This document shows, piece after piece, positions 2,566-59,617 of a DNA stretch of 64,000 nucleotides. The notes under the pieces were generated by a model. It ran no database searches. It saw nothing but the letters and a program-made list of their open reading frames with translations, and was not told the origin of the DNA. The stretch lies in the IMG/VR virus record IMGVR_UViG_3300045988_059940, positions 32,001 through 96,000 of that record. The stretch is one strand, 5' to 3'. The translations under genes and the position numbers were made by a program. Position 1 is the stretch's first letter. Each line of letters begins with the position of its first letter. Source of the stretch: a virus.

Positions 2566-3600
2566 TTAAACAAGCTTATTTAATTCAGTCTCAACTAAAC
2601 CAAGTTGACCCTTCAAACCATAAATTTCAAGACACTGGCTCGTCTTACGAACGATGTCGTCAGCAGCACGATAGCTGTTTTCAAACTCTAACGTAAGAGA
2701 ATCGTACTTAGCGCCTTTCTGTACCTCCATGTCAGGACGTATAATAGGCCAAGTACCTTCACCACGGTTTAGGATACCCTCATAACCTTGTGCCCAATAT
2801 TCACGGTCACGTACGTGCTTCCAGTTACATTCACCGTCATGACCTTCTGTCTTCTTAATTACAACACCGTCGATGAAGTATTTGTTCTTTGAAGCAAAAC
2901 CAGATGCTGATGGGTCTGTAAAGTATACATTAGCAACAAAGCGAACCTTGTTTGCAGGACTGATTGACATTACGTTGTCGTCATCATCATAAGGAAGCGC
3001 TTCAATCTTCAATGTCGTTTTGTCAGTAGCTCCATCAACAATAGCAGAAGCAATTACACGTGCACGCTTGTATTGTTTGTTGATAAGATTAGCAAGCTTC
3101 TCTGGCAAGTTCTTTTCATTATCACCATCTTTGGTTACATACTCATAAGACTCAGTCCATTTGCGGAAACGATGAGGCATGTCCTTAAACGTCAAGCGTA
3201 CTATAATACGCTTACCAGCCATACCAAGCTTCGTCTTCATTTGCGTAGACATATTCTTGAATTTAATTTCAACAGTATCTTCTGTTTCGTCTTTATATTC
3301 CTTTTTATGTAAACCGCGAACGTCAGCTTTCTTAATCTCGTTAGACCACTTGATAACTGGTTCATAAGTCGTAGCACCAGTGCTATAATCAACCTTTGGT
3401 TGACGCTTATTTTGAATAAGACCAACCTTTACTACATTACCAGTAATTGTTGCACCGACAGTGCCGTCTTCACAGTTCATGAAGATAAACTTACCTGCGT
3501 CAGCAACAGCAGTGTTTGTAGCAGTATCAGCAGGTTTTGCAGCAGCAATAGCGCCAGTGGCGAGATTGCTAATCATTACATTATTTACGTATGTATTCAT
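2566..3600 (-). CDS. abundant-looking structural protein (344 aa, no TAG)
   Basis: An uninterrupted ORF with a TAA stop and its own strong terminator. It lies in the head/tail-adaptor part of the late module. Its function is not recognisable by eye. Confidence 0.6.
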   Translation of the reverse strand: MNTYVNNVMISNLATGAIAAAKPADTATNTAVADAGKFIFMNCEDGTVGATITGNVVKVGLIQNKRQPKVDYSTGATTYEPVIKWSNEIKKADVRGLHKKEYKDETEDTVEIKFKNMSTQMKTKLGMAGKRIIVRLTFKDMPHRFRKWTESYEYVTKDGDNEKNLPEKLANLINKQYKRARVIASAIVDGATDKTTLKIEALPYDDDDNVMSISPANKVRFVANVYFTDPSASGFASKNKYFIDGVVIKKTEGHDGECNWKHVRDREYWAQGYEGILNRGEGTWPIIRPDMEVQKGAKYDSLTLEFENSYRAADDIVRKTSQCLEIYGLKGQLGLVETELNKLV

Positions 3601-3671
3601 ATTTATTAATTTTTTCTACTCACCCTAATTTCAAAGGCTCAACCTAATGAGCTGGGCTTTCCACGTTAAAA

Positions 3672-4373
3672 TTATTCTTGTGTCATAACTTCCTACGATA
3701 GAGTCTTATACCGCTCATCTTTGGTATTTTCTAAATACATTTGAGCTGCCATTTTGATAATCTCATACATAGTATTGTTATCAAAATCATAATATTCGTC
3801 ATCCATTCTTAGGAAATTTATTTCTTCTGGCTTTTTTAAGTATCCCAGAATATACTTTTTAATTTTATATTTCTTATCTGTTAACAAATAACAACCATTG
3901 TCAGTTCTCACACGTAACGGTCTAGCATAGCCGTACGAATAATGAAAATCTGTTAAGCTGTTATCTACACGATACATAAAGCTGTCTGATGTACATTCAA
4001 ATACACTAACTTGTCTTGGGTTTGAATTTTGCATATCACATATATCCACATCTTCATTTAGTGCATATAGGAAATCACCATTATACCTAACAGAATATTC
4101 ATTATATTGTGGATTAGATGTATTAATTGATGGTGAACCTATTGTAAAGTCCACCTCTTGTGTACGACATAGCTTTATTAAATCGTTTCTACGCTTCTCA
4201 TTTTGTTCATATGATGTTTTGTGTGTAAAATCACCATTGAAGCGTATCTTAATAAACTTATTTACTGCCTAGTTTAACCAATACTATGAATCATCTGTTT
4301 TTGGTTTATTGGCGTAATCGTCAAGCTTATTTATTTCTAATTCAAATGCTTCAAGTATTTCTAGGTTCTTCAT
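3672..4373 (-). CDS. virion-module hypothetical protein (TAG at 3693, 4269, 4284)
   Basis: ATG at 4373 and TAA at 3672. Frame 0 was walked across 4155-4373 and 3672-3692 and contains TAG only. Confidence 0.55.
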
Positions 4374-5070
4374 CAGTATTAGTATTATTTTGTTTATTCT
4401 ATTCTTTTCTTCCAAGTCCAGATAATTTGAATTTGTAGTCTGCTATATACATCTCTACTGCTCCATTTACTATTTCATCAGAACATTGAGATGGTAATAT
4501 ACACGGTGTGTTATCTACGTCAAACCTTGGAGGTTTTGCGTAATATTCAACCGTAAATGAACCAATTTGACAGTATTGGTCATAGACTATATAACACTTA
4601 TTATCTTCACCAAAAGCGACAAGTGGATTTCTAATTATACGACCTTTGTCGCCCTACCCTGGTATATACTTATATAAATCTCTGAAAAATACATGTATAC
4701 ACCTAGCTGTATTAAATGGAAGAACGCGCTTTTTATAATCTCTACTCATTTGGCAATAACTATCTATATATAGGTAGAAATCATTTATTGAGTCTGTATT
4801 TGATATATAAGCGCCATTTTGATATAATTGTGGAGTTATAGACTTCCTAAGCGTTTGAATAACACTAGCAATCTTAACTCCTTGTGGGGTTTGAGAATCT
4901 ATTTTTTCTTGTAATACAAACATAGATTGTATATACTTATTCTAAAACTCATTTAAGAATGAATATATAGTATCTGTATCTAATTTGCTTGCTATTTGAA
5001 AATCAGGCCATATTTCAATTAGGCGGCGCTCAAACTCAATCCCCAAATTTCGTGTTTCTTGTTGTGTCAT
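4351..5070 (-). CDS. virion-module hypothetical protein (TAG at 4399, 4654, 4942)
   Basis: ATG at 5070 overlaps the upstream TGA as ATGA. Frame 1 was walked down to the TGA at 4351-4353 and contains TAG only. Confidence 0.55.
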
Positions 5071-9362: not shown

Positions 9363-9998
9363 TTACCATTCAGTATAATCATAAGGTCGCCTTAGAGTTG
9401 TAGGGACACCTTTTTTGGTTTTACCATACAACTAATCACGCATACCTTTCAATACTTTTTTCATATCTGGAACACCTTTTGTTTTGGCGTTCTTTGGATT
9501 TAGCTTCCATTTACTCATTGCAGCATCTATGCTCTTCATGTTAGCCATACGATTACTATATGTGTCATATGAAGATTCATAGTATCCTGCGTCTTTTAGT
9601 ATTCTGGCTGCTTTTCTTGGGTCTGTTTCGTCTAGTACATTATTGTACTTTTTATCCATTAAGAGATTGTCGCTAATGTAATAGTTAGCAAAGTCTTGTT
9701 CGTTTTTAAATTGTTTGTATTGATTAATATTTGGACTAACAATACCTCCATAATTGTGTAGATTTCTAGCAATAGGAGATGTACCATTTAATGACTCCAA
9801 TGCAGTTTGACGCATAGCATTATCTAGCCAATCTAGTTTTCCGACTTCTTGCAATCTGTCATATAATGCTGGTGCCATCTTTTCAACATATTCATCGTAC
9901 TAGTCTTTGCCTCCTGCATAATTACGAATATCCCAATAGTTTTCACCATTCTTCCAACGGTCAAATCTTTCTTGAAAAGACTTAGTATTATATCTCAT
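9363..9998 (-). CDS. head-module hypothetical protein (TAG at 9432 and 9900)
   Basis: ATG at 9998 abuts the portal TGA at 10001-10003. Frame 0 was walked down to the TAA at 9363. Confidence 0.55.
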
Positions 9999-28705: not shown

Positions 28706-28731
28706 GTATTATTTTATATTAATTTATATAG

Positions 28732-28819
28732 ACGCCCCAGTAGGAGTCGAACCTACCCTGTCACCTTCAGAAGATACGCGGTTTTAGAGACCGCCAGTGC
28801 CACCGTACACCATAGGGCG
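28732..28819 (-). tRNA. amber suppressor tRNA, anticodon CUA, class II (long variable arm), 88 nt
   Basis: Manual fold: acceptor CGCCCUA/UGGGGCG; anticodon stem GCGGU/ACCGC with loop C-U-CUA-A-A; variable arm of about 20 nt with a 5-bp stem; T arm GUAGG-UUCGACU-CCUAC. No CCA is encoded. The base after the acceptor stem is U. Confidence 0.8.
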
Positions 28820-38709: not shown

Positions 38710-38944
38710 GAAATACTATGTTGTATGTAACAGTTTCTTTGGAGTCCCAAAAAACAAATATACCACATACATTATTACACAAAATAACTGTATAACATTT
38801 GCAGTAGCAATGTTAAATAGAAGTGGTATATGGTATGAGAAAGGTACACTTAAAACAACAGCAGATGATGATTGGAACTATATATCTCTACATAAAAATA
38901 AAGTAGAAATTACCAAGGAACAATGGCTAAGAATATTTAAATAA
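38702..38944 (+). CDS. hypothetical protein
   Basis: An 80-aa ORF overlapping the upstream gene. Confidence 0.45.
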   Translation: MNKKYYVVCNSFFGVPKNKYTTYIITQNNCITFAVAMLNRSGIWYEKGTLKTTADDDWNYISLHKNKVEITKEQWLRIFK

Positions 38945-39001
38945 GGATTTATTTTTACCATATAAAATTTGAAAGATTGGAGACAGATATTAAAAACCTT
39001 A

Positions 39002-39034
39002 ATACCACGATTCGTGAGAACCGTGGTATTTTTA
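39002..39034 (+). terminator. rho-independent terminator
   Basis: ATACCACG-12 nt-CGTGGTAT followed by TTTTT. Confidence 0.7.
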
Positions 39035-39042
39035 AAGCATTA

Positions 39043-39225
39043 CCTAATCCAGCCACACCACAGTGACAGTCCTAAGCCTGTTAAATGGAGAAGGGGTAAT
39101 TGTAAACAACTCTAAATTGAATATGGGTAATGAGCCTACGCCCCGTTTAGATAGTTTACAGCTCACCTAACGAGCAGCTCACTCAAAGTATATGTGGAAT
39201 ACTGAGAGTAAAAGAGGCGGCCGAT
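39043..39225 (+). repeat. copy 1 of a roughly 180-nt duplicated non-coding element
   Basis: It shares three ordered blocks with 39603-39770: TAATCCAGCCA..., GTCCTAAGCCTG...GGAGAAGGGGTAA, and ...TGTGGAATACTGAGAGTAAAAG. Confidence 0.55.
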
Positions 39226-39349
39226 AACCAAATCCGAGTTTATATATTTAGAAAAGCTTTATCAGCAAAACGAACATTATTGTGCACAATAATGTTTATG
39301 TGTAGTTTAGTCCAACAATATGTTTCTGCTCTGGAAGTTTTTACACATT

Positions 39350-39422
39350 TCTCCCTTAGCTCAATCTAGTCAGAGCATCATAGGTATTATGAAAGATTCT
39401 GGTGCAAATCCAGAAGGGAGAA
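39350..39422 (+). ncRNA. tRNA-like element (73 nt) with a non-canonical anticodon loop
   Basis: The acceptor is UCUCCCU/AGGGAGA, the D arm is GCUC/GAGC and the T arm is UCUGG-UGCAAAU-CCAGA. The anticodon arm UCAUA-GGUAU-UAUGA has only a 5-nt loop, or a 7-nt loop AGGUAUU lacking U33. Confidence 0.45.
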
Positions 39423-39463
39423 CGAACGACGTTTTTAAATTTTGCATAAGAAAAAGGATTATG

Positions 39464-39595
39464 TTTCGCTAAGTAACCTGTGAAGGCGAAAGAAATAGGA
39501 ATTGATACGAAATTTCGCTGAGTAATCTGCAAAGATGAAAAGATTACGGAATTTGGAAAGCGTAAATCTGTGAAGACAAGCGCTTTTGTTTTTAC
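39464..39595 (+). ncRNA. three tandem hairpins with a conserved loop sequence plus a terminator-like end (candidate small RNA)
   Basis: The three hairpins are TTTCGC-TAAGTAACCTGTGAAG-GCGAAA, TTTCGCTGAGTAATCTGCAAAG... and AAGCG-TAAATCTGTGAAGACA-AGCGCTTTTGTTTTT. Confidence 0.45.
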
Positions 39596-39602
39596 GTTTA
39601 TC

Positions 39603-39770
39603 TTAATCTAGCCAGTCCCAATGTCGGTCCTAAGCCCGAAATGCGTTCATTACGTATAATAGAGAAGGGGGTAAACGCACACCAAAAATGGCGTAATTAA
39701 CCAAGGTGTGTCTCTCAGTCCAGACGTAAGAGAGTAATCCGCTCATAGTGGGAATATGAGTGAAAAAATA
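39603..39770 (+). repeat. copy 2 of the duplicated non-coding element
   Basis: The blocks TAATCTAGCCA..., GTCCTAAGCCCG...AGAGAAGGGGGTAA and ...AGTGGGAATATGAGTGAAAAAA occur in the same order as in copy 1. Confidence 0.55.
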
Positions 39771-39908
39771 CAATTAAGTAAGTAGTTGTAGAAAGAATTA
39801 AAATAAGTGCTTACTCACAAAACCGAAAATAATGTGTTTGGGTTTATCGTAGCGCGCAAAGAAGCGGATTTCAGAACACATAATCGTCATAGGTATTATG
39901 ACAATCTT

Positions 39909-40001
39909 TCTCTCTTAGTTTAAATAATAAAACATCTATAAGATAGGAAATATTGAAACACCTATTAATAGAAGATATTGGCGTAAATCCAATAGAGAGA
40001 A
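39909..40001 (+). ncRNA. tRNA-like element with an expanded anticodon region (93 nt)
   Basis: The acceptor is UCUCUCU/AGAGAGA, the D arm is GUUU/AAAC and the T arm is AUUGG-CGUAAAU-CCAAU. About 40 nt lie where the 17-nt anticodon arm should be. It is preceded at 39886-39903 by the hairpin GTCATAGGTATTATGAC, the same hairpin that forms the anticodon arm of 39350-39422. Confidence 0.4.
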
Positions 40002-40510
40002 CTATTTTATTCAAATATAGCAGTAACTATTATACCAAAAACTTAATAACTTTCCAAGTCATTGAGGACACCAGTTTCTTACACCCAGTAAGTTTTAGGT
40101 GTAAAATGCAATTCAAGACACTAATCACGTCTAGAATCCATCTTTGTTTGAATTGATTACTCAAACGGAGAAATACCCGTAAAACGGAGCTCAACTACAA
40201 AATACGCTCGTAGTTGCTGAGTATAGGTAGAATTGTGTTTAGTAATTGAGTACGAGGATACGAAGTTACGTGACACTCTGGAAAGACAGAGAGTATGCTT
40301 AATTGCGCAAGTAAGTATACTAGCACTATCGTATAACATATAGATTACGCTCCGTGCTGTCGGAGAAATGTAGGCTTATTACCTACTAGTGCACTAATTG
40401 TTGTCAGCCCCTGTGTGAATAATAGTAACACTTATAGGAACTGTCTGGTGTGGTCACGAAAGTGGCAATTTAATCATAGCTTAATTAAATCCTGCTATGG
40501 GGTAAATATT

Positions 40511-47050: not shown

Positions 47051-47123
47051 GCACCAGTAGTTCAATGGATAGAGCAGGAGTTTTCTAAACTCTTAGTTGT
47101 GGGTTCGAGTCCTACCTGGTGTA
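47051..47123 (+). tRNA. tRNA-Arg (UCU)
   Basis: The acceptor is GCACCAG/CUGGUGU and the D arm is GUUC/GAGC. The anticodon stem GGAGU/ACUCU closes the loop UUUCUAA. The T arm is GUGGG-UUCGAGU-CCUAC. Confidence 0.8.
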
Positions 47124-47963: not shown

Positions 47964-48050
47964 GGTATAAATTATTCGTTTAGCTTATATCTACTAAAAG
48001 CGGTTATCGTGTCCGTAATGCCAGTGACAGGCTAATAAACGATTTTGATT

Positions 48051-48608
48051 ATGAAAAATCCTAGAATCACAGAATCAGAGATTTTGCTAATCAGAGAAGC
48101 TCAACAGGGTAGTCAACTTGCTTTTAGTAAGTTGTTTGAGAAATATAAAGGCTTTGTAGAAAGCATTTTATTTTCTTACATTAAGGATATGGATGAAGCG
48201 AAAGATATTGCTAACATCGTATTCCTTAAAGTCTACCACAAACTTTCAAAATTCACAGATTATTCTTCTTTTGGAGGATGGCTGAGAATTTTAACAAACC
48301 GTACAGCAATAGATTATCTACGTAGTATCCGATTGAAACAACGTGCCGAAGTTGAAACAGACCGACTAACTGCTTCAACTCAAATCTCTTCAAGTGAAGA
48401 CGAACTAGTCAATCGTTTGGCATATAAAAAGATATTAGAGGAATTTGAAAAGTTCCCCGTGCATATGAAACGTATATTGGAATTATATTATGTAGAAAAT
48501 TTAACAGTTGTACAAATTAGTGAAGCTCTGTGTGTTCCTACTGGAACTATTAAGTCGATTTTATCAAGAACGCGCAAGCAAATTCAAAGTTCAATTAATA
48601 AAATTTAA
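48051..48608 (+). CDS. ECF-type sigma-70 family RNA polymerase sigma factor
   Basis: The region 2-like segment is FSKLFEKYKGFVESILFSYIKDMDEAKDIANIVFLKVYHKL...FGGWLRILTNRTAIDYLR. The region 4-like HTH segment is LELYYVENLTVVQISEALCVPTGTIKSILSRTRKQI. Confidence 0.8.
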   Translation: MKNPRITESEILLIREAQQGSQLAFSKLFEKYKGFVESILFSYIKDMDEAKDIANIVFLKVYHKLSKFTDYSSFGGWLRILTNRTAIDYLRSIRLKQRAEVETDRLTASTQISSSEDELVNRLAYKKILEEFEKFPVHMKRILELYYVENLTVVQISEALCVPTGTIKSILSRTRKQIQSSINKI

Positions 48609-49091: not shown

Positions 49092-50501
49092 ATGAGTAAG
49101 AAACAAAAGAAGGCTAACAGCCAAAAGGTAGTAAACAAAGTAGAAAAGAAGGTAGAGATGAAAATCGTACCTCCTGCACCTGAAACTAAAGAAGAAACCA
49201 AGGTTGAAGAAGCTAAGGTTAAAGAGGTTAAACCTGTAATCAATGTTATCGACACGGGTCAGCTGAAAGAGAATCTCAACCCTCAAACGTCAGGACTTAG
49301 TCCAGACAAACAAGTTGACCTACTGGCTATGATGGACAGAACGTTCCGTCAAGACAAGAATGCAGCTGTTCGTTATCATATGAGCCAAGAGGCCATCGAT
49401 ATGATTAACGAAGTAAGTGCTATTGGTCAGGTTGCAGTTCTTATGAACGAGGTTGTTAACGGTACGAGCAATTTTGCTGTACGTATGCGTGTTGGTACGC
49501 TTGACAACATTCGTAAGATTGCTCCAATGGTTGGTGTAGAGATTGTTGAAAACGCTCTACCTGCACCAGTTGACGGAGTAGTAGAAGTACAATCGAAAGC
49601 CTTGAAGGTTTCTGAGGAAGCAAAGAAAGCTTTGAAGGCTGAGAAAAAGGCAGTAGAAAGCAAAGTGCTTGACCCGAAGGACATAAAGACGAAAGAAGAG
49701 CTGACAACAGCTTTGTTGCAGTTCCTGTCTAAGCGTAACAATATTCACGAAAACATTCAGCAAGCAATTGCCTTTATGCGTGAATACAAGAACGTAAACG
49801 CAACTGATGAAACTAGGGAGGCTGTAAAACAGCTGACTAGAATCGAGTTGCTCAAAGAAGTTGTAGCAACTGTTGAGGAGGCGCCTATCGTATTGAGCGG
49901 TATTGGCAACTTTCTTTACACTACCACTTCGACTTCGAAATCCCCTATTTCGGCGTTCTGTCATTTTAGGAACACAACCCTCATCAAGGAGACAGGAGAG
50001 CCTACTTTGGATGATGCAGAAGTGGCTGATTATGTCAAGATTCTCGTAACTTGGGCATGCGAAATCAAGAAGAGACAATCCACTGCTGAAATCAAGAAGA
50101 TAGAGGACAATCTCAAAGTTCTCCAAAAGGACAAGAAGAACAACAAGGTTGCTATCGCCGAACAGGAGAAGAAGATTGAGACTCAGAAAAACAATATCGT
50201 ACACTTCGATGGCGTAATTGACTATGTTACGAACGCATCAGAAGAGTTCGTTACAAGGTTGATTCCTGAGTACGAAAAGAAGGAAATGATGTTTGTAAAA
50301 ACATTCAACGTGATTGCAAGCAGCTATTATTCAGACGAAGAAATTAAGCAAGCTAAGCTGGCTTCTTTGAAGAAGAACGTTGAGCAACGCGCTGGTATCA
50401 TTACCAACTTATTCCGTTCACCGCTTTCGCAGATGATTAATTACAGCGAAAGCAACATCACCGAGCTAGAAAAGGTAGAAAATGAACCTGAAAAAAACTA
50501 G
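49092..50501 (+). CDS. large charged hypothetical protein (469 aa)
   Basis: It is GC-richer, has a K/E-rich N-terminus and is preceded by the ATTATCAAA motif. It ends in TAG, followed by the hairpin CGACCGAT...ATCGGTCG. Confidence 0.6.
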   Translation: MSKKQKKANSQKVVNKVEKKVEMKIVPPAPETKEETKVEEAKVKEVKPVINVIDTGQLKENLNPQTSGLSPDKQVDLLAMMDRTFRQDKNAAVRYHMSQEAIDMINEVSAIGQVAVLMNEVVNGTSNFAVRMRVGTLDNIRKIAPMVGVEIVENALPAPVDGVVEVQSKALKVSEEAKKALKAEKKAVESKVLDPKDIKTKEELTTALLQFLSKRNNIHENIQQAIAFMREYKNVNATDETREAVKQLTRIELLKEVVATVEEAPIVLSGIGNFLYTTTSTSKSPISAFCHFRNTTLIKETGEPTLDDAEVADYVKILVTWACEIKKRQSTAEIKKIEDNLKVLQKDKKNNKVAIAEQEKKIETQKNNIVHFDGVIDYVTNASEEFVTRLIPEYEKKEMMFVKTFNVIASSYYSDEEIKQAKLASLKKNVEQRAGIITNLFRSPLSQMINYSESNITELEKVENEPEKN

Positions 50502-50577
50502 TTCCGACCGATGAGCCAAAAACGTTTATCGGTCGAATAAGAGAAGTGTGGAATAAACTCACCAAATTATCAAAATT

Positions 50578-50982
50578 ATGAAACGCTTTACAACTATCAT
50601 TTGTAGTATAGCATTTGCCGTATTTGGCGTATGTATTGCAACAGATAAGATAGAGGTAGCTACGCAAGAACAAAACGTAGCTTATGCACAGCCGATACCG
50701 AACTTCGATTTGGCAAAAGTGCAAGTACCAAAAGACATCCAAATGAGTCTTTATGCAAAGCAGCTGGAATCTGAGAAAGCTACATCTCAGAAAGTGCCAG
50801 AGGTAACTATCGTAGCATCGAAGCGCGTTAAGGAGCGCGTTAGAGTAGTTCACAAGACTTCGTATGTTCCTGTGCTCTACATAGCAACTCCTAAAAAAGA
50901 ATCTTCCAAGTATCAGTATGATGTACAGCGTGCTGATATTCAAGCTCCTCCAATTAAAGGAGAGCCAACGTGGGAAGACTGA
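50578..50982 (+). CDS. secreted/membrane hypothetical protein
   Basis: The signal-like N-terminus is MKRFTTIICSIAFAVFGVCIA. It is preceded by the ATTATCAAAATT motif. Confidence 0.55.
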   Translation: MKRFTTIICSIAFAVFGVCIATDKIEVATQEQNVAYAQPIPNFDLAKVQVPKDIQMSLYAKQLESEKATSQKVPEVTIVASKRVKERVRVVHKTSYVPVLYIATPKKESSKYQYDVQRADIQAPPIKGEPTWED

Positions 50983-50989
50983 TAGTAAG

Positions 50990-53220
50990 ACGATTTAGGT
51001 CTCATTAGCCAATAATCGCTCAAACATCAAAAAATTTACTTGGTCCGAGAATATGTTAACCTTCTCAAAAGGCAAGATGTCCGAAAAAGTGTGGACTATC
51101 AAAAGGTAGGACGAAAGACAAGATTGGTGTGAAAAGCCAACTTGTATAGGGGATAGTGACGCATCAAAACCCCTACACGTGTATAAACCAGTTGCAGTCC
51201 TTTATGCTGAACTAGGATAATCTTATCGTGGTGTACACGTAAGGAACAGCACATAAATCACGGCCTTGAAAAATAGATAACCGTGTAAAAGTTGATGCCG
51301 TATCGTAGACAATGCTTTTAGATACAAATTGTATTGTAACGTAACACGAGTTGAATTTATCAATTAGTCAGGACTATAAAGAGGCGCTCTTGTAGTCTTA
51401 TAGGGGATGGATGTGGATGGTAGTGATGATGAGGTCCAACTCTCATTGATAAAGTATCAGTAAGTCGAGCATAGTGTTCATGAGGTCCAAAGTCATTATG
51501 AAGGTGCGAAAAAATATGTGGAGTAAAACAATATCGTGAGGATAATGCTCACGGGGTGTACCGTAACTATGCCGCCTATGTAAGGCCAGTTCCGTGCAAC
51601 TCGGATGCCTCTCGTCACGCGCGTAGGGGAGTAAGTGGGTAAAACGGCTGATTTATGGTGATGCATGACCGCCAGGCTTTTGTTGTTTATGCGGGATATA
51701 AAAGTGAAACAACCAGGAGAGTGGGGCAGACTCTTAATGCGAAGTAGGGCTAACAAGCTTGAAGGCTACGCGAAACGAGTGCGCGGACAAACACTGATTT
51801 AATATGAATATACCTGGCTAGACGAGGTGAAGATGTAAGTTATTCATATAAGATAGATAGAACTAAAAAGCTACTATCCACTACGATGACAACGTTACAG
51901 TCAAAAAATGTACGCTTGCATACAATCAAGCCGAACCAAATTAGGTTTATCGGTTCCAATGCCATATTGCCAATGGTAGTGAAGACCCATTAACCTTTGA
52001 TGTAATAAATAATCAAGGTGTATCACTATTATAATAATATCATTATATCTCTATTGGAGTAATTAAACCAGTATATATGATGTGCATTATGATATATACA
52101 AACAAACCAGAGATGAAATAAAAACATCACAAATGAGAGTAAATAACATGTTTAACAAAAATAGGTGTCCCCCGATAGGTGCCACTTTCGTTGTAAGAAA
52201 GAGCTGAGTCGGAAGCCTGAGTGCCAACCGTGACTTTGAAAAAATTATACAGAATAAACTATACAATTTCCGTCTAAGTTTGAACCGCCGAACGTGAATA
52301 CATTAATAGGTAACCGTGGACGGTAATTGAAGTAGGACAGCAAATCTTTATAGATTTATAGAGTAGTTATCCATTAATTGATGGGCAGCAACAACCTAAG
52401 TACGTCCTTGCAATAAGGATAGGGAGTTAGTGACTCATTGGTGTACACTGTCTATGTACATTGATAGGGAATGTTGTGGGTGACAAGAAGCGTGGGTAGG
52501 GTTGAAATCCCAAGTATTCGAGCACTTCTCAATGAAAAGCGAGATAAAACAAATGAGGAAGCAAAATCCAAGAGAAGAAACAGCCGTAGCATCCGAGATA
52601 CCCCTTGAAGGCTAGATGGTCCGATAATGAAACGTCGCTATTACGTTATAGTATAGCTGAGAGAGGCCTGGTCGCCACCTCGAATAAGAATTGAAAGCAC
52701 CAGCAACTGAGAAAACTGCAAACAACGATATGACCGATAGTCTTGAAAAAGACAATGTCGCCATACTTTCGGTGTCGTATACTGACAATGGCAAAAGCAC
52801 TACGGGTTAGTGTGGAGAGAATTTTTATTAAGTAAGTAACAATTTTTTCAAAACAATTTTCGTGGGTTAAACTTATAAACAGGGTGTAATGCATTCTGTA
52901 TGAGTTTTTTATTTAAGAATTTAAATTACAAAATACAAGCACTTGAATGTGCATTTTCGGCATTTGAAGTTTCAAGTAAACAAATTTAGGCTAAGCTAAT
53001 CCTACCATTGGATTCCCTTGTATTTGACTTCCATACTACTTGTAGATAGGATATATAATACATGTTTGTTGAAATAGTAAACGACCTCTCATTAGCACGG
53101 TTAAACCGAATCTTATTTTAAACTGAGTGTCGGTGCGTCGAGCCACCGAGCCTGCACCAATTTTTAATTCCGACTAGCGTTTACGTTAGTTAATCAATAA
53201 CAATTTCAAAAAGGTAAACA
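50990..53220. ncRNA. 2.2-kb ORF-free, GC-richer, apparently structured non-coding block
   Basis: All three stop codons are frequent in all six frames. The only track ORFs are short ones on the strand opposite the flanking rightward genes. Many local hairpins and G/C-rich complementary words are visible. See findings. Confidence 0.5.
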
Positions 53221-53223
53221 AAA

Positions 53224-53835
53224 ATGGAAAAAATTAATATTAATGCGCTTGCAAACAATCGCAAGCCACTATCTAACATGGGAGCCCTCTTTGGGTGTCA
53301 ATACTTCAAGGCTGAATTGCGTGAGCATGACACCAATTTCACTAAGCGTGAACTACAAACCAAGCAGAACGGCAACATCGACTTGATGCCTAATAGAACA
53401 ATTCACCGTTATCGTATGACAGACTTTGATGTTGTAAGCATCAACTTCGTAACCAACCCTGATGGCAGCAATTCTGTTATCTTCAACATGGGAACGGACG
53501 ATGAGGTTGTGCTGCCTGTTGATAGCAACATGACACAAGTAGGTGAAGTTAACGAAAACGCACTGAAAGAGTCGTTGCGCGGTGATAACAAGAACGTTAT
53601 CTTCGCAAACCCTGAGAACTTGGCTGCGATGCTCAATCGCATGAACCAAGCAGAAATTAACCGAGCCGAAAGCTTGATTAAAGAGCTAGAAACTGCTATT
53701 AAGCAAGCTCGTCGGGCAATGGACGAAAACCAGAAGAAGGTTGAAACGTACATGTCCCAGATGGTGAACTCTACTCCCGCACCTATGTCGCGAGGAACAG
53801 AGGTTAACATTAACATCAAAACGACTGAGGAGTAA
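53224..53835 (+). CDS. hypothetical protein
   Basis: 203 aa and GC-richer. Confidence 0.55.
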   Translation: MEKININALANNRKPLSNMGALFGCQYFKAELREHDTNFTKRELQTKQNGNIDLMPNRTIHRYRMTDFDVVSINFVTNPDGSNSVIFNMGTDDEVVLPVDSNMTQVGEVNENALKESLRGDNKNVIFANPENLAAMLNRMNQAEINRAESLIKELETAIKQARRAMDENQKKVETYMSQMVNSTPAPMSRGTEVNINIKTTEE

Positions 53836-57739: not shown

Positions 57740-59617
57740 ATGATTATACGAAACAAAACAGTCATTACATATGACATTGAAGTTTTCCACAACGTATTTC
57801 ATTGTACGTGTAAAGATACAGAAACAGGTCAGTTACACTTTTTTGAGTTAAGTAACAGAAAGAATCAACTAAGAGAATTAGTTGATTTTTTTCGTATTAA
57901 TACTTATCTATTTTGTGGATATAACAATAAGCATTTTGATGATGTAGTAATAAATTATATCATTGATATGATTAATGTAATAGAAACAAAAACTCGATTA
58001 AGAGTGGCTGAATCTATTTTTAATCTTTCACAAACAATAATTACGTCTGAGGAAGATATTAGTCCATTTAAGAAGTGGAAGTATATGTATAATTTTGCTT
58101 CTATGGACTTGCTTACAATGCAATTTAGTTCAAAATTACGTGTGGGCTTAAAGGAAATGCAAGTAACTATGTATTATCCTAACGTAAAAGAATATGCAGG
58201 AGATTTTAACGACAACCTGGCAGATTCTGAAATTGACGAAATGATTGCATACAACATTAATGATGTTGATTCTACTACGGAGTTATTAAACAGATTAAAA
58301 TCTGATATAGAATTACGAGAATATATACGACAAGAATATGACATTGATGCATTGTCTATGGACGGCGTTAAGATTGGTGAGACTTTACTATTGAAAAAGT
58401 ATTGTGAAGCTACAAATCTAGACCAAGAATATGTGAAAACATTAAGCAGTCCAATGGATTATATTGCATTAAAAGATGTAATATTACCTATCGTACAATT
58501 TAAAAATCCGATTTTAAAAGACGTTCTTGACGAGATGAAAGCCCAAGTTGTCTACACAAAAGAACGCAAAGGCTATGAGAAGAAGTTTGTTCTCTCAAAT
58601 GTGTGCTATTCTATTGGAGTAGGAGGAATACATTCCATCCATACTCCTAGAATCTTCACTCCTAATGCAGATGAATATATTGGACACAGCGATGTAGCAT
58701 CAATGTATCCGTCCTTTATTATACAGTATGGATGGATACCACAACATTTAGGTAAAGATTTTTGGCAGGTGTACAGCGCAGTTTACAATGAGCGCATAGA
58801 AGCCAAACGTGTCAAACAGAAGTTGAAGGATAAAGTATTAAAGCTTTCCTTGAACGCTGTTACAGGGAAAATGCAACAAGAGACAAGTTGGATGTACGAC
58901 CCACTGTCAGTATTTAAAATACGAATTAACGGACAATTAGTTCTGTTGATGTTAGTGGAGCGTCTATTAGAGTTAGGTTGTAAGATTGTACAAGTTAACA
59001 CTGACGGAGTGGTGTATATTGCAAAAAAAGACAAAGCCGAACAAGTAGGGCAGAGTATTAGAGAAATAGAGCAATTAACACGCTTGTCATTTGAAACAGA
59101 TAGATACGAAGCGTTTTATCAGTACGCAATCAATGATTATTTCGGTGTCGTTGATGGTTTCTCTCAATCTAGGGACGAGAAACTGATAGAAAAGAAAGGT
59201 ATGTTTATCACCAACACCAACCTTGGGAAAGGGTTAACTCCAACCGTAATACCAAAGGCGGTGATAAACTATTTTGTAAACAAAGAACCAGTGTCAGAAT
59301 TTATTAAGAAAGATGAAAACATCTGTGACTTTCTTATGGCACAAAAATGCGACAGAAAGTTTAAAGTTATACATGGAGAAAAGCCTGTACAACGTATTAA
59401 TAGATTTTACGCATCAACGAATGACTATTCGTTATTCAAAGTTTCACCAGAAGGAAAAGAGATTAATATGCTCACAAAATCTGGTGTAACAATCTTGAAC
59501 CAATTAGATAGTAAGCCGATAGGGGAGAGACATCTAAACTATCTATATTATATTAGTGAAGCGAAGAAAATTATTCACGCTTTTGAATGTAGACAGTTAG
59601 ATTTATTTAATGATTAA
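57740..59617 (+). CDS. family B DNA polymerase
   Basis: The exonuclease motifs are YDIEV (ExoI), GYNNKHFD (ExoII) and YNINDVDST (ExoIII). The polymerase motifs are DVASMYPSFI (A), KLSLNAVTGKM (B) and VNTDGV (C). Confidence 0.85.
   Translation: MIIRNKTVITYDIEVFHNVFHCTCKDTETGQLHFFELSNRKNQLRELVDFFRINTYLFCGYNNKHFDDVVINYIIDMINVIETKTRLRVAESIFNLSQTIITSEEDISPFKKWKYMYNFASMDLLTMQFSSKLRVGLKEMQVTMYYPNVKEYAGDFNDNLADSEIDEMIAYNINDVDSTTELLNRLKSDIELREYIRQEYDIDALSMDGVKIGETLLLKKYCEATNLDQEYVKTLSSPMDYIALKDVILPIVQFKNPILKDVLDEMKAQVVYTKERKGYEKKFVLSNVCYSIGVGGIHSIHTPRIFTPNADEYIGHSDVASMYPSFIIQYGWIPQHLGKDFWQVYSAVYNERIEAKRVKQKLKDKVLKLSLNAVTGKMQQETSWMYDPLSVFKIRINGQLVLLMLVERLLELGCKIVQVNTDGVVYIAKKDKAEQVGQSIREIEQLTRLSFETDRYEAFYQYAINDYFGVVDGFSQSRDEKLIEKKGMFITNTNLGKGLTPTVIPKAVINYFVNKEPVSEFIKKDENICDFLMAQKCDRKFKVIHGEKPVQRINRFYASTNDYSLFKVSPEGKEINMLTKSGVTILNQLDSKPIGERHLNYLYYISEAKKIIHAFECRQLDLFND

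What the first reader, a model, noticed from the sequence alone, without database searches (positions are those of the whole stretch)
50990..53220. 2.2-kb ORF-free, GC-enriched block: candidate very large structured RNA(s)
Seen in sequence: there is no plausible coding frame between the stop of 50578-50982 and the ATG at 53224. TAA, TGA and TAG are all frequent in all six frames, so TAG recoding does not rescue it. The only track ORFs are short and lie on the strand opposite the flanking rightward genes.

The sequence is visibly richer in G+C than the flanking genes. It is dense in complementary G/C words, for example GGGGTGTACCGTAAC...GCCGCC, GCGTAGGGGAGTAAGTGGG, GGCCTGGTCGCCACC and GGTGCGTCGAGCCACCGAGCCTGCACC. 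A T-loop-like GGGTTGAAATCCC occurs near 52506.

A phage devoting over 3 percent of a 64-kb window to one non-coding block is unusual.

Inference: this may be one or more large ornate RNAs. Phage-associated giant RNAs near tRNA genes, such as GOLLD and ROOL, are known in other lineages. I cannot show homology to any known family.
Basis: partly seen in the sequence, partly recalled or inferred. Interest (0 to 1): 0.8.

Follow-up and report, generated by a model that had tools for sequence, protein, structure and literature searches.

The report
Two-kilobase structured RNA in crAss-like phages
A 2.2-kb gene-free stretch of this gut phage genome is a deeply conserved, intricately folded non-coding RNA locus, shared by the Suoliviridae family of crAss-like phages and matching no known RNA family, so it may be one of the largest structured RNAs found in a bacterial virus.

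Summary
The ORF-free block at 50983-53223 is real and is not coding under any genetic code. All three stop codons are dense in all six frames, and conservation shows no 3-base periodicity, unlike both flanking genes.

The window comes from a crAss-like phage (Crassvirales, Suoliviridae). A gap of about 2.1 kb (mostly 1.95-2.33 kb) lies at the same syntenic position in roughly 90 of 97 related contigs. It is also present in reference genomes of four Suoliviridae subfamilies.

The flanking proteins are only 25-39% identical between these genomes. Blocks of the gap keep 72-84% nucleotide identity.

Two domains were tested formally and show strong compensatory covariation:
- 93.8% and 90.2% of cells are paired, against about 77% in shuffles and 36-54% in slid controls (0/500 shuffles reach the observed values).
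- The central domain contains two crossing-helix (pseudoknot) arrangements.
- G-U pairs outnumber A-C pairs five to one, which places the RNA on the + strand.

No Rfam family matches, including GOLLD, ROOL, OLE and group I/II introns.

The closest precedent is the pair of abundant but uncharacterised long non-coding RNAs of crAss-like phage phi14:2. No sequence homology to them was detectable.

Three things remain unknown: expression, whether this is one ~1.9-kb RNA or several RNAs, and function.

The parts
50998..51010 (+). 5' boundary hairpin GGU-CUCAUUA-GCC, the first 'CAUUAG' loop. In the window an outer stem extends it to 50991-51018.
   Evidence: The stem covaries across lineages (AGG/CCU, CGG/CCG, AGA/UCU, CAG/CUG). 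The exact word TCTCATTAGC occurs only twice in the 64-kb window, both times in this block.
51033..51202 (+). 5' domain, the most widely conserved part. It contains helix 51043-46:51109-12, hairpin 51060-63:51069-72, a variable hairpin with a GUGAAAAG loop, and hairpin GGGG 51149-52:CCCC 51169-72.
   Evidence: Covariance model R1 scores 111.7 bits here. It finds 93 matches in 98 loci. On 72 distinct sequences, 90.2% of cells are paired against 77.5% in shuffles (0/500), and 18 of 22 pairs show compensatory change. R1 also hits the syntenic gap in Loutivirinae, Boorivirinae and Uncouvirinae genomes.
51203..51463 (+). Second domain. Helices: 51212-15:51231-34, 51313-17:51329-33, and a closing helix 51321-26:51452-58 around a variable insert.
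   Evidence: Each helix has 4-5 covarying pairs in the 25-lineage alignment.
51464..51823 (+). Central domain, closed by 51464-66:51821-23. It holds ten helices. Two arrangements have crossing helices (pseudoknots): CCGC 51669-72:GCGG 51691-94 crosses GUUGUUU 51682-88:AAACAAC 51707-13, and the CGCG hairpin at about 51770-51785 crosses AGUG 51778-81:CACU 51792-95.
   Evidence: 93.8% of cells are paired against 77.1% in shuffles (0/500) and 36-47% in slid controls. 31 of 45 pairs show compensatory change. G-U cells number 104 against 21 A-C cells.
51824..52139 (+). Less conserved, A+T-rich linker or expansion region with two supported hairpins: 51887-90:51900-03 and 52041-46:52077-82.
52140..52250 (+). 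Conserved block UAACAUGUUUAACAAAAAU...GUCCCCCGAUAG...GAGUGCCAACCG, with helices 52172-76:52208-12 and 52186-89:52197-200.
   Evidence: Identity to the window reaches 0.86 across 25 lineages. The helices have 4-5 covarying pairs. A colinear nhmmer match is found in Loutivirinae.
52340..52650 (+). 3' core domain. It contains helices 52367-72:52494-99, 52388-92:52475-77 and 52442-47:52455-60, the invariant word GUGGGUGACAAG (52476-87), the T-loop-like hairpin at 52499-52511, and the block GCCGUAG...CGAUAAUGAAACG.
52651..52871 (+). Most variable segment. The window and its close relative L101 lack about 100-150 nt that most relatives carry, including a third CAUUAG-type element.
   Evidence: No covarying helix was found here.
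52872..52912 (+). Intrinsic-terminator-like hairpin followed by a U run. This is the proposed 3' end of the main RNA.
   Evidence: -10.8 kcal/mol, z = -3.9. A comparable hairpin plus T run lies at the equivalent place in about 10 of 25 lineages.
52930..53170 (+). 3' unit. It contains hairpin 52939-42:52949-52, closing helix 52969-73:53077-81, hairpin AAUCC 52998-53002:GGAUU 53010-14, helix 53018-24:53054-62, a CAUUAG loop at 53083-53102, and a weaker terminator-like stem GGUGC..GCACC plus U run at 53124-53166.
53178..53220 (+). Conserved hairpin that covers the ribosome-binding region of the downstream gene. It probably belongs to that gene's translation start and not to the RNA.
   Evidence: 7-bp helix with 6 covarying pairs.

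Best explanation
The block is a locus for large, highly structured non-coding RNA read from the + strand, the same direction as the flanking early/replication-module genes. It is a hallmark of the crAss-like phage family Suoliviridae.

Shown here: the block is non-coding; its position and its ~2.1-kb length are conserved; it consists of a chain of local domains with covarying helices, crossing-helix (pseudoknot) arrangements and a T-loop-like hairpin; the pairing pattern is strand-specific.

Inferred:
- The main product is one multi-domain RNA of about 1.9 kb, running from about 50995 to the terminator-like hairpin at about 52910.
- It is followed by a unit of about 250 nt (52930-53170), which may be a separate RNA or a read-through extension.
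- By analogy with the long non-coding RNAs of phi14:2, it would be made early and stay abundant.
- It would act in trans as a folded scaffold or decoy that binds host or phage proteins, or assembles with itself, through conserved loops such as the CAUUAG loops and the T-loop. This would serve host takeover or defence evasion. It would not act as an mRNA leader.

My sub-confidences: structured RNA on the + strand 0.9; one large RNA rather than several 0.5; trans-acting scaffold or decoy function 0.2.
For: Non-coding:
- Stop codons are dense in all frames under any single recoding.
- Conservation has no period-3 signal, whereas the flanking genes score 56x and 7x the median.
- No + strand ORF of 80 aa or more occurs in the gap in 25 divergent lineages.

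Conservation:
- The syntenic gap is 1.95-2.33 kb in about 90 of 97 loci.
- Profile-HMM matches occur in 196 fetched loci, and 98 of them are near full length.
- The gap is present in Oafivirinae, Loutivirinae, Uncouvirinae and Boorivirinae reference genomes.
- The 5' domain is found there by the covariance model at E from 8e-21 to 1.6e-4.
- Flanking proteins are only 25-39% identical.

Structure:
- 17 local helices have at least 3 covarying pairs, against 0 in ten column shuffles.
- An independent Loutivirinae-type alignment gives 12 such helices, against 0-1 in nulls.

Strand:
- G-U 104 against A-C 21 in the central domain.
- G-U 74 against A-C 44 in helices detected with Watson-Crick pairs only.
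- The terminator-like hairpin plus U run is on the + strand.

One functional unit:
- The domains are colinear and the total length is constrained across subfamilies, with no inserted gene in about 90 loci.
- No other convincing terminator lies between 50990 and 52870; the one other + strand match, at 52164, lacks a T run.

Precedent:
- phi14:2 transcribes long intergenic regions, upstream of its DNA polymerase, rightward and at higher levels than most genes, from the earliest time point sampled and without the later decline (bioRxiv 10.1101/2020.03.07.982082, read).
- The locus here also lies about 4.5 kb upstream of the DNA polymerase gene.
Against: - There is no expression data for any Suoliviridae phage, and I know of no cultured member.
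- No convincing long-range helix ties the domains together. Helices spanning 300 or more columns are only weakly above the shuffle null.
- Two segments (51824-52139 and 52651-52871) are poorly conserved and could be spacers between separate genes.
- The terminator-like hairpin at about 52900 passes my strict test in only about 10 of 25 lineages.
- No promoter was identified.
- phi14:2 makes two long RNAs rather than one. Its region shows no sequence or covariance-model similarity to this one, and its flanking proteins are not detectably related.
- Part of the strand test uses helices that were chosen with G-U counted as a pair, which biases it toward the + strand.
- The proposed function rests on analogy alone.
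Confidence: 0.55

Rival explanations
1. The block is a tandem cluster of several independent small or medium structured RNA genes (for example 51033-51460, 51464-51823, 52140-52650 and 52930-53170). Each would be transcribed or processed separately and have its own function.
For: All well-supported helices are local, spanning 350 nt or less. Poorly conserved A+T-rich spacers separate the conserved domains. There is a terminator-like site at about 52900. phi14:2 has two long non-coding RNAs. The same genomes carry several other small orphan RNA motifs and candidate twister ribozymes that could process transcripts.
Against: The order, co-occurrence and total length (about 2.1 kb) of the domains are held across four subfamilies, with no loss, shuffling or inserted gene in about 90 loci. 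No convincing terminator-like site lies between 50990 and 52870 in the window. No repeated promoter-like motif stands in front of each domain.
Confidence: 0.3
2. The block is a very long structured 5' leader (cis-regulatory region) of the downstream operon that starts at 53224.
For: It has the same orientation as the downstream genes. A conserved hairpin covers their ribosome-binding region (53178-53220). The terminator-like hairpins could work as attenuators.
Against: Two kilobases with at least 25 conserved helices and crossing-helix pseudoknots is far more than known leaders carry. One or two terminator-like sites precede the gene. The block is as conserved as, or more conserved than, the gene it would regulate (mean identity to the window 0.48 against 0.46 and 0.34). 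No riboswitch or leader family matches.
Confidence: 0.08
3. The block is a DNA-level element, such as a replication origin, a packaging site or an array of protein-binding sites, and not an RNA.
For: It lies next to the replication module. It contains A+T-rich stretches and a recurring short word, CATTAG.
Against: Compensatory changes preserve pairing within one strand. G-U pairs are tolerated far more than A-C pairs, which DNA duplex sites would not show. No iteron-like repeat families were found.
Confidence: 0.04
4. The block is a degraded or recoded protein gene, or a self-splicing intron or mobile element that interrupts a gene.
For: The phage recodes TAG: it carries a suppressor tRNA(CUA), and the code-11 ORF gaps elsewhere close when TAG is read as sense. 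From my own knowledge, crAss-like phages are also rich in introns.
Against: No open frame exists under any single-stop recoding. Conservation has no codon periodicity. No group I or group II intron match appears even at E<=10. The flanking ORFs are complete, separate genes in all relatives.
Confidence: 0.02

Closest known systems
Long non-coding RNAs of crAss-like phage phi14:2 (intergenic regions g004-g005 and g005-g006; Drobysheva et al., bioRxiv 10.1101/2020.03.07.982082)
   Same: Both are in a crAss-like phage. Both are a long ORF-free region (about 1.7 kb at 2905-4601 of NC_021806) in the rightward gene block, about 5 kb upstream of the DNA polymerase gene. In phi14:2 the regions are transcribed rightward, more abundantly than most genes, from the earliest time point and without the later drop. 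Their function is unknown.
   Different: phi14:2 belongs to a different family (Steigviridae). There is no profile-HMM or covariance-model similarity. The flanking proteins are not detectably related. No structure or covariation was reported for the phi14:2 RNAs. Two RNAs were reported there.
GOLLD and ROOL large ornate RNAs
   Same: All are large, multi-domain, conserved structured non-coding RNAs with pseudoknots, often carried by phages or prophages, with no established biochemical function. Cryo-EM shows GOLLD and ROOL form RNA-only multimers (PMC12286853, abstract listed).
   Different: No match to either Rfam model. The locus here is roughly two to three times longer (GOLLD and ROOL sizes are from my own knowledge). 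It occurs in Bacteroidota-associated crAss-like phages. It is not adjacent to tRNA genes. Multimerisation was not tested.
OLE, HEARO, raiA and other large bacterial non-coding RNA classes
   Same: They are long structured RNAs discovered by comparative genomics before any function was known.
   Different: No Rfam match. Those classes are encoded by cells or insertion sequences and have characteristic neighbouring genes that are absent here.
RAGATH motifs and twister ribozymes
   Same: They are orphan structured RNAs found in the same genomes and the same rightward block: RAGATH-12 at 40423-40504, sub-threshold twister-P1 matches at 39041 and 39600, and RAGATH-9 and RAGATH-20 in cr56_1.
   Different: They are 60-170 nt motifs located elsewhere in the genome. 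None lies inside the block.
Group I and group II introns
   Same: They are structured RNAs of 0.3-2.5 kb that are common in phages.
   Different: No covariance-model match. The block does not interrupt a gene and carries no intron-encoded protein.

Membership tests
GOLLD RNA (Rfam) | Match to the family covariance model | tested here: not met
   cmscan of the window at gathering thresholds, of 50500-53700 at E<=10 and of relative L003 at E<=1 gave no GOLLD match.
GOLLD RNA (Rfam) | Adjacency to tRNA genes in phage or prophage DNA | tested here: not met
   The nearest tRNA genes are at 47051 and 56581, about 3.3-3.9 kb away with protein genes in between.
ROOL RNA (Rfam) | Match to the family covariance model | tested here: not met
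   No match.
OLE, HEARO, raiA, RNase P, tmRNA, 6S, rRNA (Rfam) | Match to any of these covariance models | tested here: not met
   The only hits within 50983-53223 had E above 5 and scores far below gathering (DLEU2_6, ncr952, FuFi-1). A fourth noise hit, mir-511, lies in the upstream gene.
Group I / group II introns | Match to the intron covariance models, and interruption of a host gene | tested here: not met
   No model match. The flanking ORFs are complete and separately conserved.
phi14:2 long non-coding RNAs | Sequence or structure homology to the phi14:2 intergenic regions | tested here: not met
   nhmmer --max gave only E of about 9 noise. Covariance model R1 with filters off gave a best hit of E 1.2 in phi14:2, outside the gap.
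phi14:2 long non-coding RNAs | Abundant rightward transcription from early in infection | not testable with these tools
   No RNA-seq data were available for a Suoliviridae phage.
phi14:2 long non-coding RNAs | A long ORF-free region in the rightward block a few kb upstream of the DNA polymerase | tested here: met
   Window: gap 50983-53223, DNA polymerase at 57740. phi14:2: gap 2905-4601, PolB at 9636.
Large ornate structured RNA (general kind) | Many conserved helices supported by compensatory changes, including pseudoknots | tested here: met
Large ornate structured RNA (general kind) | A single discrete transcript of that length | not testable with these tools
   Only indirect evidence exists: constrained length and domain order, and no convincing terminator between 50990 and 52870.
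Large ornate structured RNA (general kind) | RNA-only higher-order assembly, as seen for GOLLD, ROOL and OLE | not testable with these tools
   This needs cryo-EM or mass photometry.

The most novel reading that the evidence does not exclude
The whole block from about 50995 to 52910 (possibly to 53170) is one RNA of about 1.9-2.2 kb. That would make it the largest structured non-coding RNA class known in a phage and a defining feature of Suoliviridae. It would form a large RNA-only or RNA-protein particle, or act as a ribozyme, during infection of gut Bacteroidota, using a fold unrelated to any described RNA.
Probability: 0.4. Interest if true: 0.92.

Novelty: new variant of a known kind. Interest (0 to 1): 0.8.

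Why it matters
From general knowledge, crAss-like phages are among the most abundant viruses of the human gut. Here a whole family of them spends about 2% of a roughly 100-kb genome on a non-coding element that is at least as conserved as the proteins encoded beside it.

If it is one RNA, it would be two to three times the size of GOLLD or ROOL, the RNAs whose discovery and recent cryo-EM structures reshaped ideas of what RNA can build on its own.

It also offers a comparative-genomic handle on the unexplained abundant long non-coding RNAs seen in phi14:2.

In practical terms, several deposited genomes carry spurious ORF calls inside this block that should be removed. The covariance model built here can mark the locus in new assemblies.

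Tried and rejected
- The search for related loci with an alignment of the downstream protein failed because no stretch was conserved enough.
- MAFFT Q-INS-i was not usable in the sandbox because MXSCARNA is missing. Alignments other than A5, which was fitted to covariance model R1, are therefore sequence-based, and variable hairpins are under-counted.
- nhmmer with default filters discarded everything at the bias filter. I used --max or --nobias instead.
- Whole-region RNAalifold gave a fragmentary structure.
- Long-range helices are not convincingly above shuffles.
- I considered the idea that the CAUUAG loops pair with the conserved GCUAAU at 52995-53000. The loop word hardly varies, and where it does (CAUAAG variants) I saw no matching change by eye, so I dropped it.
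- Internal repeats are only short window-specific duplications, with no iterons.
- The genome-contig scan gave 37 hits. About 34 are expected by chance for that pattern (my estimate). Only 11 are real, and all sit on phage-sized contigs binned into MAGs, so they give no host or prophage information.
- Scan hits L171 and L177 are false positives, and L088 is a chimeric contig.
- Flanking proteins gave little: apart from the ECF-type sigma factor (48045-48608) and one weak PHROGs tail-fibre-assembly match for the 203-aa protein (E 7e-4), there were no Pfam, PHROGs or NCBIfam hits. The 469-aa neighbour has no PDB sequence match. Its AlphaFold model (pLDDT 76.7, all-alpha) has no significant Foldseek match in the PDB.
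- Literature: Yutin 2021 (PMC7886860) does not mention non-coding regions. Fremin 2023 (PMC10690425) reports only 29-151 nt motifs and does not mention crAss. No paper in the library describes this locus.
Full report
**What the window is.** A blastn search with the block against deposited phage genomes hit only crAss-like phages of the family Suoliviridae (Bohxovirus, Cacepaovirus, Chuhaivirus, Buhlduvirus, Burzaovirus) plus one unclassified lemur-gut phage. The window carries an amber-suppressor tRNA(CUA). Nearly all of its code-11 ORF gaps in the leftward block close when TAG is read as sense. The block of interest lies in the rightward block. Three genes upstream is an ECF-type sigma factor gene. 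About 4.5 kb downstream are the genes for DNA polymerase, a DnaB-like helicase and a Sak4-like protein.

**Checking the observation.** The ORF-free stretch 50983-53223 is real.
- No ORF exceeds 86 aa on either strand.
- Every + frame carries 50-61 stops, made up of all three stop codons. Recoding any one stop leaves at most 90 open codons on the + strand.
- Conservation across 25 lineages shows a strong 3-base periodicity in both flanking genes (56x and 7x the median power) and none in the block (0.4-2.5x). This excludes a coding reading under any code.
- The G+C claim is wrong. The block is 38.6% GC, the window 34.8%, and the immediate flanking genes 39-46%. The block alternates between 47% and 32%.
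GGCCTGGTCGCCACC lies in the least conserved segment.

**Conservation.**
- In all deposited relatives, the same unannotated gap of about 2 kb sits between the same genes. A few records carry small ORF calls inside it that differ from genome to genome.
- Two exact-pattern scans of IMG/VR brought in about 190 loci.
- In 25 representatives that share less than 85% similarity, the + strand has no ORF of 80 aa or more in a gap of 1974-2306 nt. In the second set, about 90 of 97 loci have a gap of 1.95-2.33 kb.
- A profile HMM of the gap matches 196 loci, 98 of them almost end to end.
- The flanking proteins are only 25-39% identical between these genomes. Blocks of the gap keep 72-84% nucleotide identity. 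Mean identity to the window is 0.48 in the gap, against 0.46 and 0.34 in the flanking genes.

**Family-wide distribution.**
- The syntenic gap is present in Loutivirinae (cr56_1 2152 nt, cr4_1 2147 nt, cr52_1 2109 nt).
- It is also present in Uncouvirinae (cr115_1 2205 nt, cr118_1 1920 nt) and in Boorivirinae (cr10_1, about 2.1 kb).
- The profile HMM finds colinear blocks in Loutivirinae.
- The 5'-domain covariance model finds the start of the gap in all four subfamilies, at E from 8e-21 to 1.6e-4.

**Structure.**
- A helix search based on compensatory changes in the 25-lineage alignment found 17 local helices with at least three covarying pairs, against none in ten column-order shuffles. They are spread from 50997 to 53081.
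- Central domain (51464-51823): I curated ten helices on a MAFFT alignment. Two arrangements have crossing helices, which makes them pseudoknots. 93.8% of cells are paired, against 77.1% in shuffles (0/500) and 36-47% when partners are slid. 31 of 45 pairs show changes on both sides.
- 5' domain (51033-51202): a covariance model realigned 93 matches, 72 of them distinct. 90.2% of cells are paired, against 77.5% in shuffles (0/500) and 40-54% slid. 18 of 22 pairs are compensatory.
- An independent alignment of ten Loutivirinae-type gaps gave 12 helices with at least three covarying pairs, against 0-1 in nulls.
- The controls have known limits. Related sequences can beat shuffles without any structure, and part of the structure was derived from these same alignments. 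Even so, the gap to the slid controls is large, and many pairs show three or four pair types.

**Strand.**
- In the central domain, G-U cells outnumber A-C cells 104 to 21. Read from the other strand, pairing would fall from 93.8% to 86.3%.
- In helices detected with Watson-Crick pairs only, the ratio is 74 to 44.
- A good intrinsic-terminator-like hairpin with a U run lies on the + strand at 52872-52912. A comparable site is at the same relative position in about 10 of 25 lineages.
- All of this points to the + strand, the strand of the flanking genes.

**One RNA or several.**
- For one unit: domain order, co-occurrence and total length are held across subfamilies. No gene or mobile element is inserted in about 90 loci. 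No convincing terminator lies between 50990 and 52870.
- Against one unit: all well-supported helices are local. Long-range helices are not clearly above chance. Two segments are poorly conserved.
- I favour a main RNA of about 1.9 kb plus a 3' unit of about 250 nt, but only at about even odds.
- The hairpin at 53178-53220 overlaps the ribosome-binding site of the next gene and probably belongs to that gene.

**A recurring hairpin-loop word.** CAUUAG marks the 5' boundary (50998-51010) and the 3' unit (53083-53102). Most relatives have a third copy just before the terminator-like site. The exact 10-mer occurs nowhere else in the window. Its role is open; it could be a protein-binding site, a processing signal or a tertiary contact.

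**Comparison with known RNAs.** No Rfam 15 family matches the block in the window or in a relative. I found no description of the locus in the paper library.

The closest precedent is in the phi14:2 study. Two long intergenic regions in the rightward early block, upstream of the DNA polymerase, are transcribed more strongly than most genes from the earliest time point and do not decline. Their function is unknown. The phi14:2 gap is about 1.7 kb, but it shows no detectable similarity to this locus, and its neighbouring proteins are unrelated. The link is therefore positional analogy and not demonstrated homology.

**Function.** Nothing in the neighbourhood explains the RNA. The neighbouring proteins have no family matches, apart from one weak PHROGs hit for the 203-aa protein. 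The conserved 469-aa neighbour folds into an all-alpha model with no significant PDB match. My working hypothesis is a stable trans-acting scaffold or decoy RNA made early in infection. It rests on analogy with phi14:2 and with large ornate RNAs, and I give it about 0.2.

**Verdict.** This is a previously undescribed, family-wide locus of about 2.1 kb for structured RNA in crAss-like phages. Expression, transcript architecture and function remain to be shown.

Noticed in passing
window 40423-40504 (+): RAGATH-12 RNA, 89 bits against a gathering score of 75. Relative cr56_1 carries RAGATH-9 (L104 708-865) and RAGATH-20 (L104 1512-1609) in intergenic gaps of the same rightward block. These phages carry several orphan RNA motifs.
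   Followed up: partly
window 39041-39098 and 39600-39672 (+): Two sub-gathering twister-P1 ribozyme matches (46.2 bits, E 1.4e-8; 32.2 bits, E 1.5e-4; gathering 67.2). They lie inside the second-largest ORF-poor stretch of the window (38710-40414), just upstream of RAGATH-12.
   Followed up: partly
window 28731-28819 (-); ORF gaps across 4-25 kb: A tRNA with anticodon CUA, an amber suppressor that ARAGORN labels tRNA-Pyl. Almost all code-11 ORF gaps of 700 nt or more in the leftward block disappear when TAG is read as sense. This indicates TAG recoding of that block.
   Followed up: partly
window 48045-48608 (+): An ECF-type sigma factor gene (Sigma70_r2 and r4). It is conserved three genes upstream of the RNA locus in all four Suoliviridae subfamilies examined.
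   Followed up: partly
window 53178-53220 (+): A conserved 7-bp hairpin with 6 covarying pairs overlaps the ribosome-binding region of the gene that starts at 53224. It is a possible translational control element.
   Followed up: no
L235 5919-6280 (cr115_1); L236 5536-5921 (cr10_1): Annotated tmRNA genes lie in the same rightward block of two related phages. No tmRNA was found in this window.
   Followed up: no
L236 11125-11310; L001 3945-4451; L005 3695-4177; L006 3915-5923: Deposited genomes annotate hypothetical proteins inside the RNA locus: cr10_1 gp22, Bohxovirus ECCNAKDA_00150, cr7_1 gp52, and a dozen tiny CDS in Dulem virus 42. These ORFs are not conserved between lineages, and the cr10_1 call overlaps the covariance-model hit, so they are probably spurious calls.
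   Followed up: partly
L088; L171, L177; L196-L232: IMG/VR contig L088 is chimeric: ABC-transporter-like coding sequence is joined about 250 nt after the anchor. L171 and L177 are chance pattern matches. Eleven GTDB MAG contigs that carry the locus are phage-sized contigs binned into unrelated bacterial MAGs, among them one labelled Segatella copri.
   Followed up: partly
window 51214-51236 vs 51539-51561; 51421-51439 vs 51472-51490: Short internal direct repeats inside the RNA (23 nt at 78%, 19 nt at 89%) suggest local duplication of hairpin modules in this lineage.
   Followed up: no
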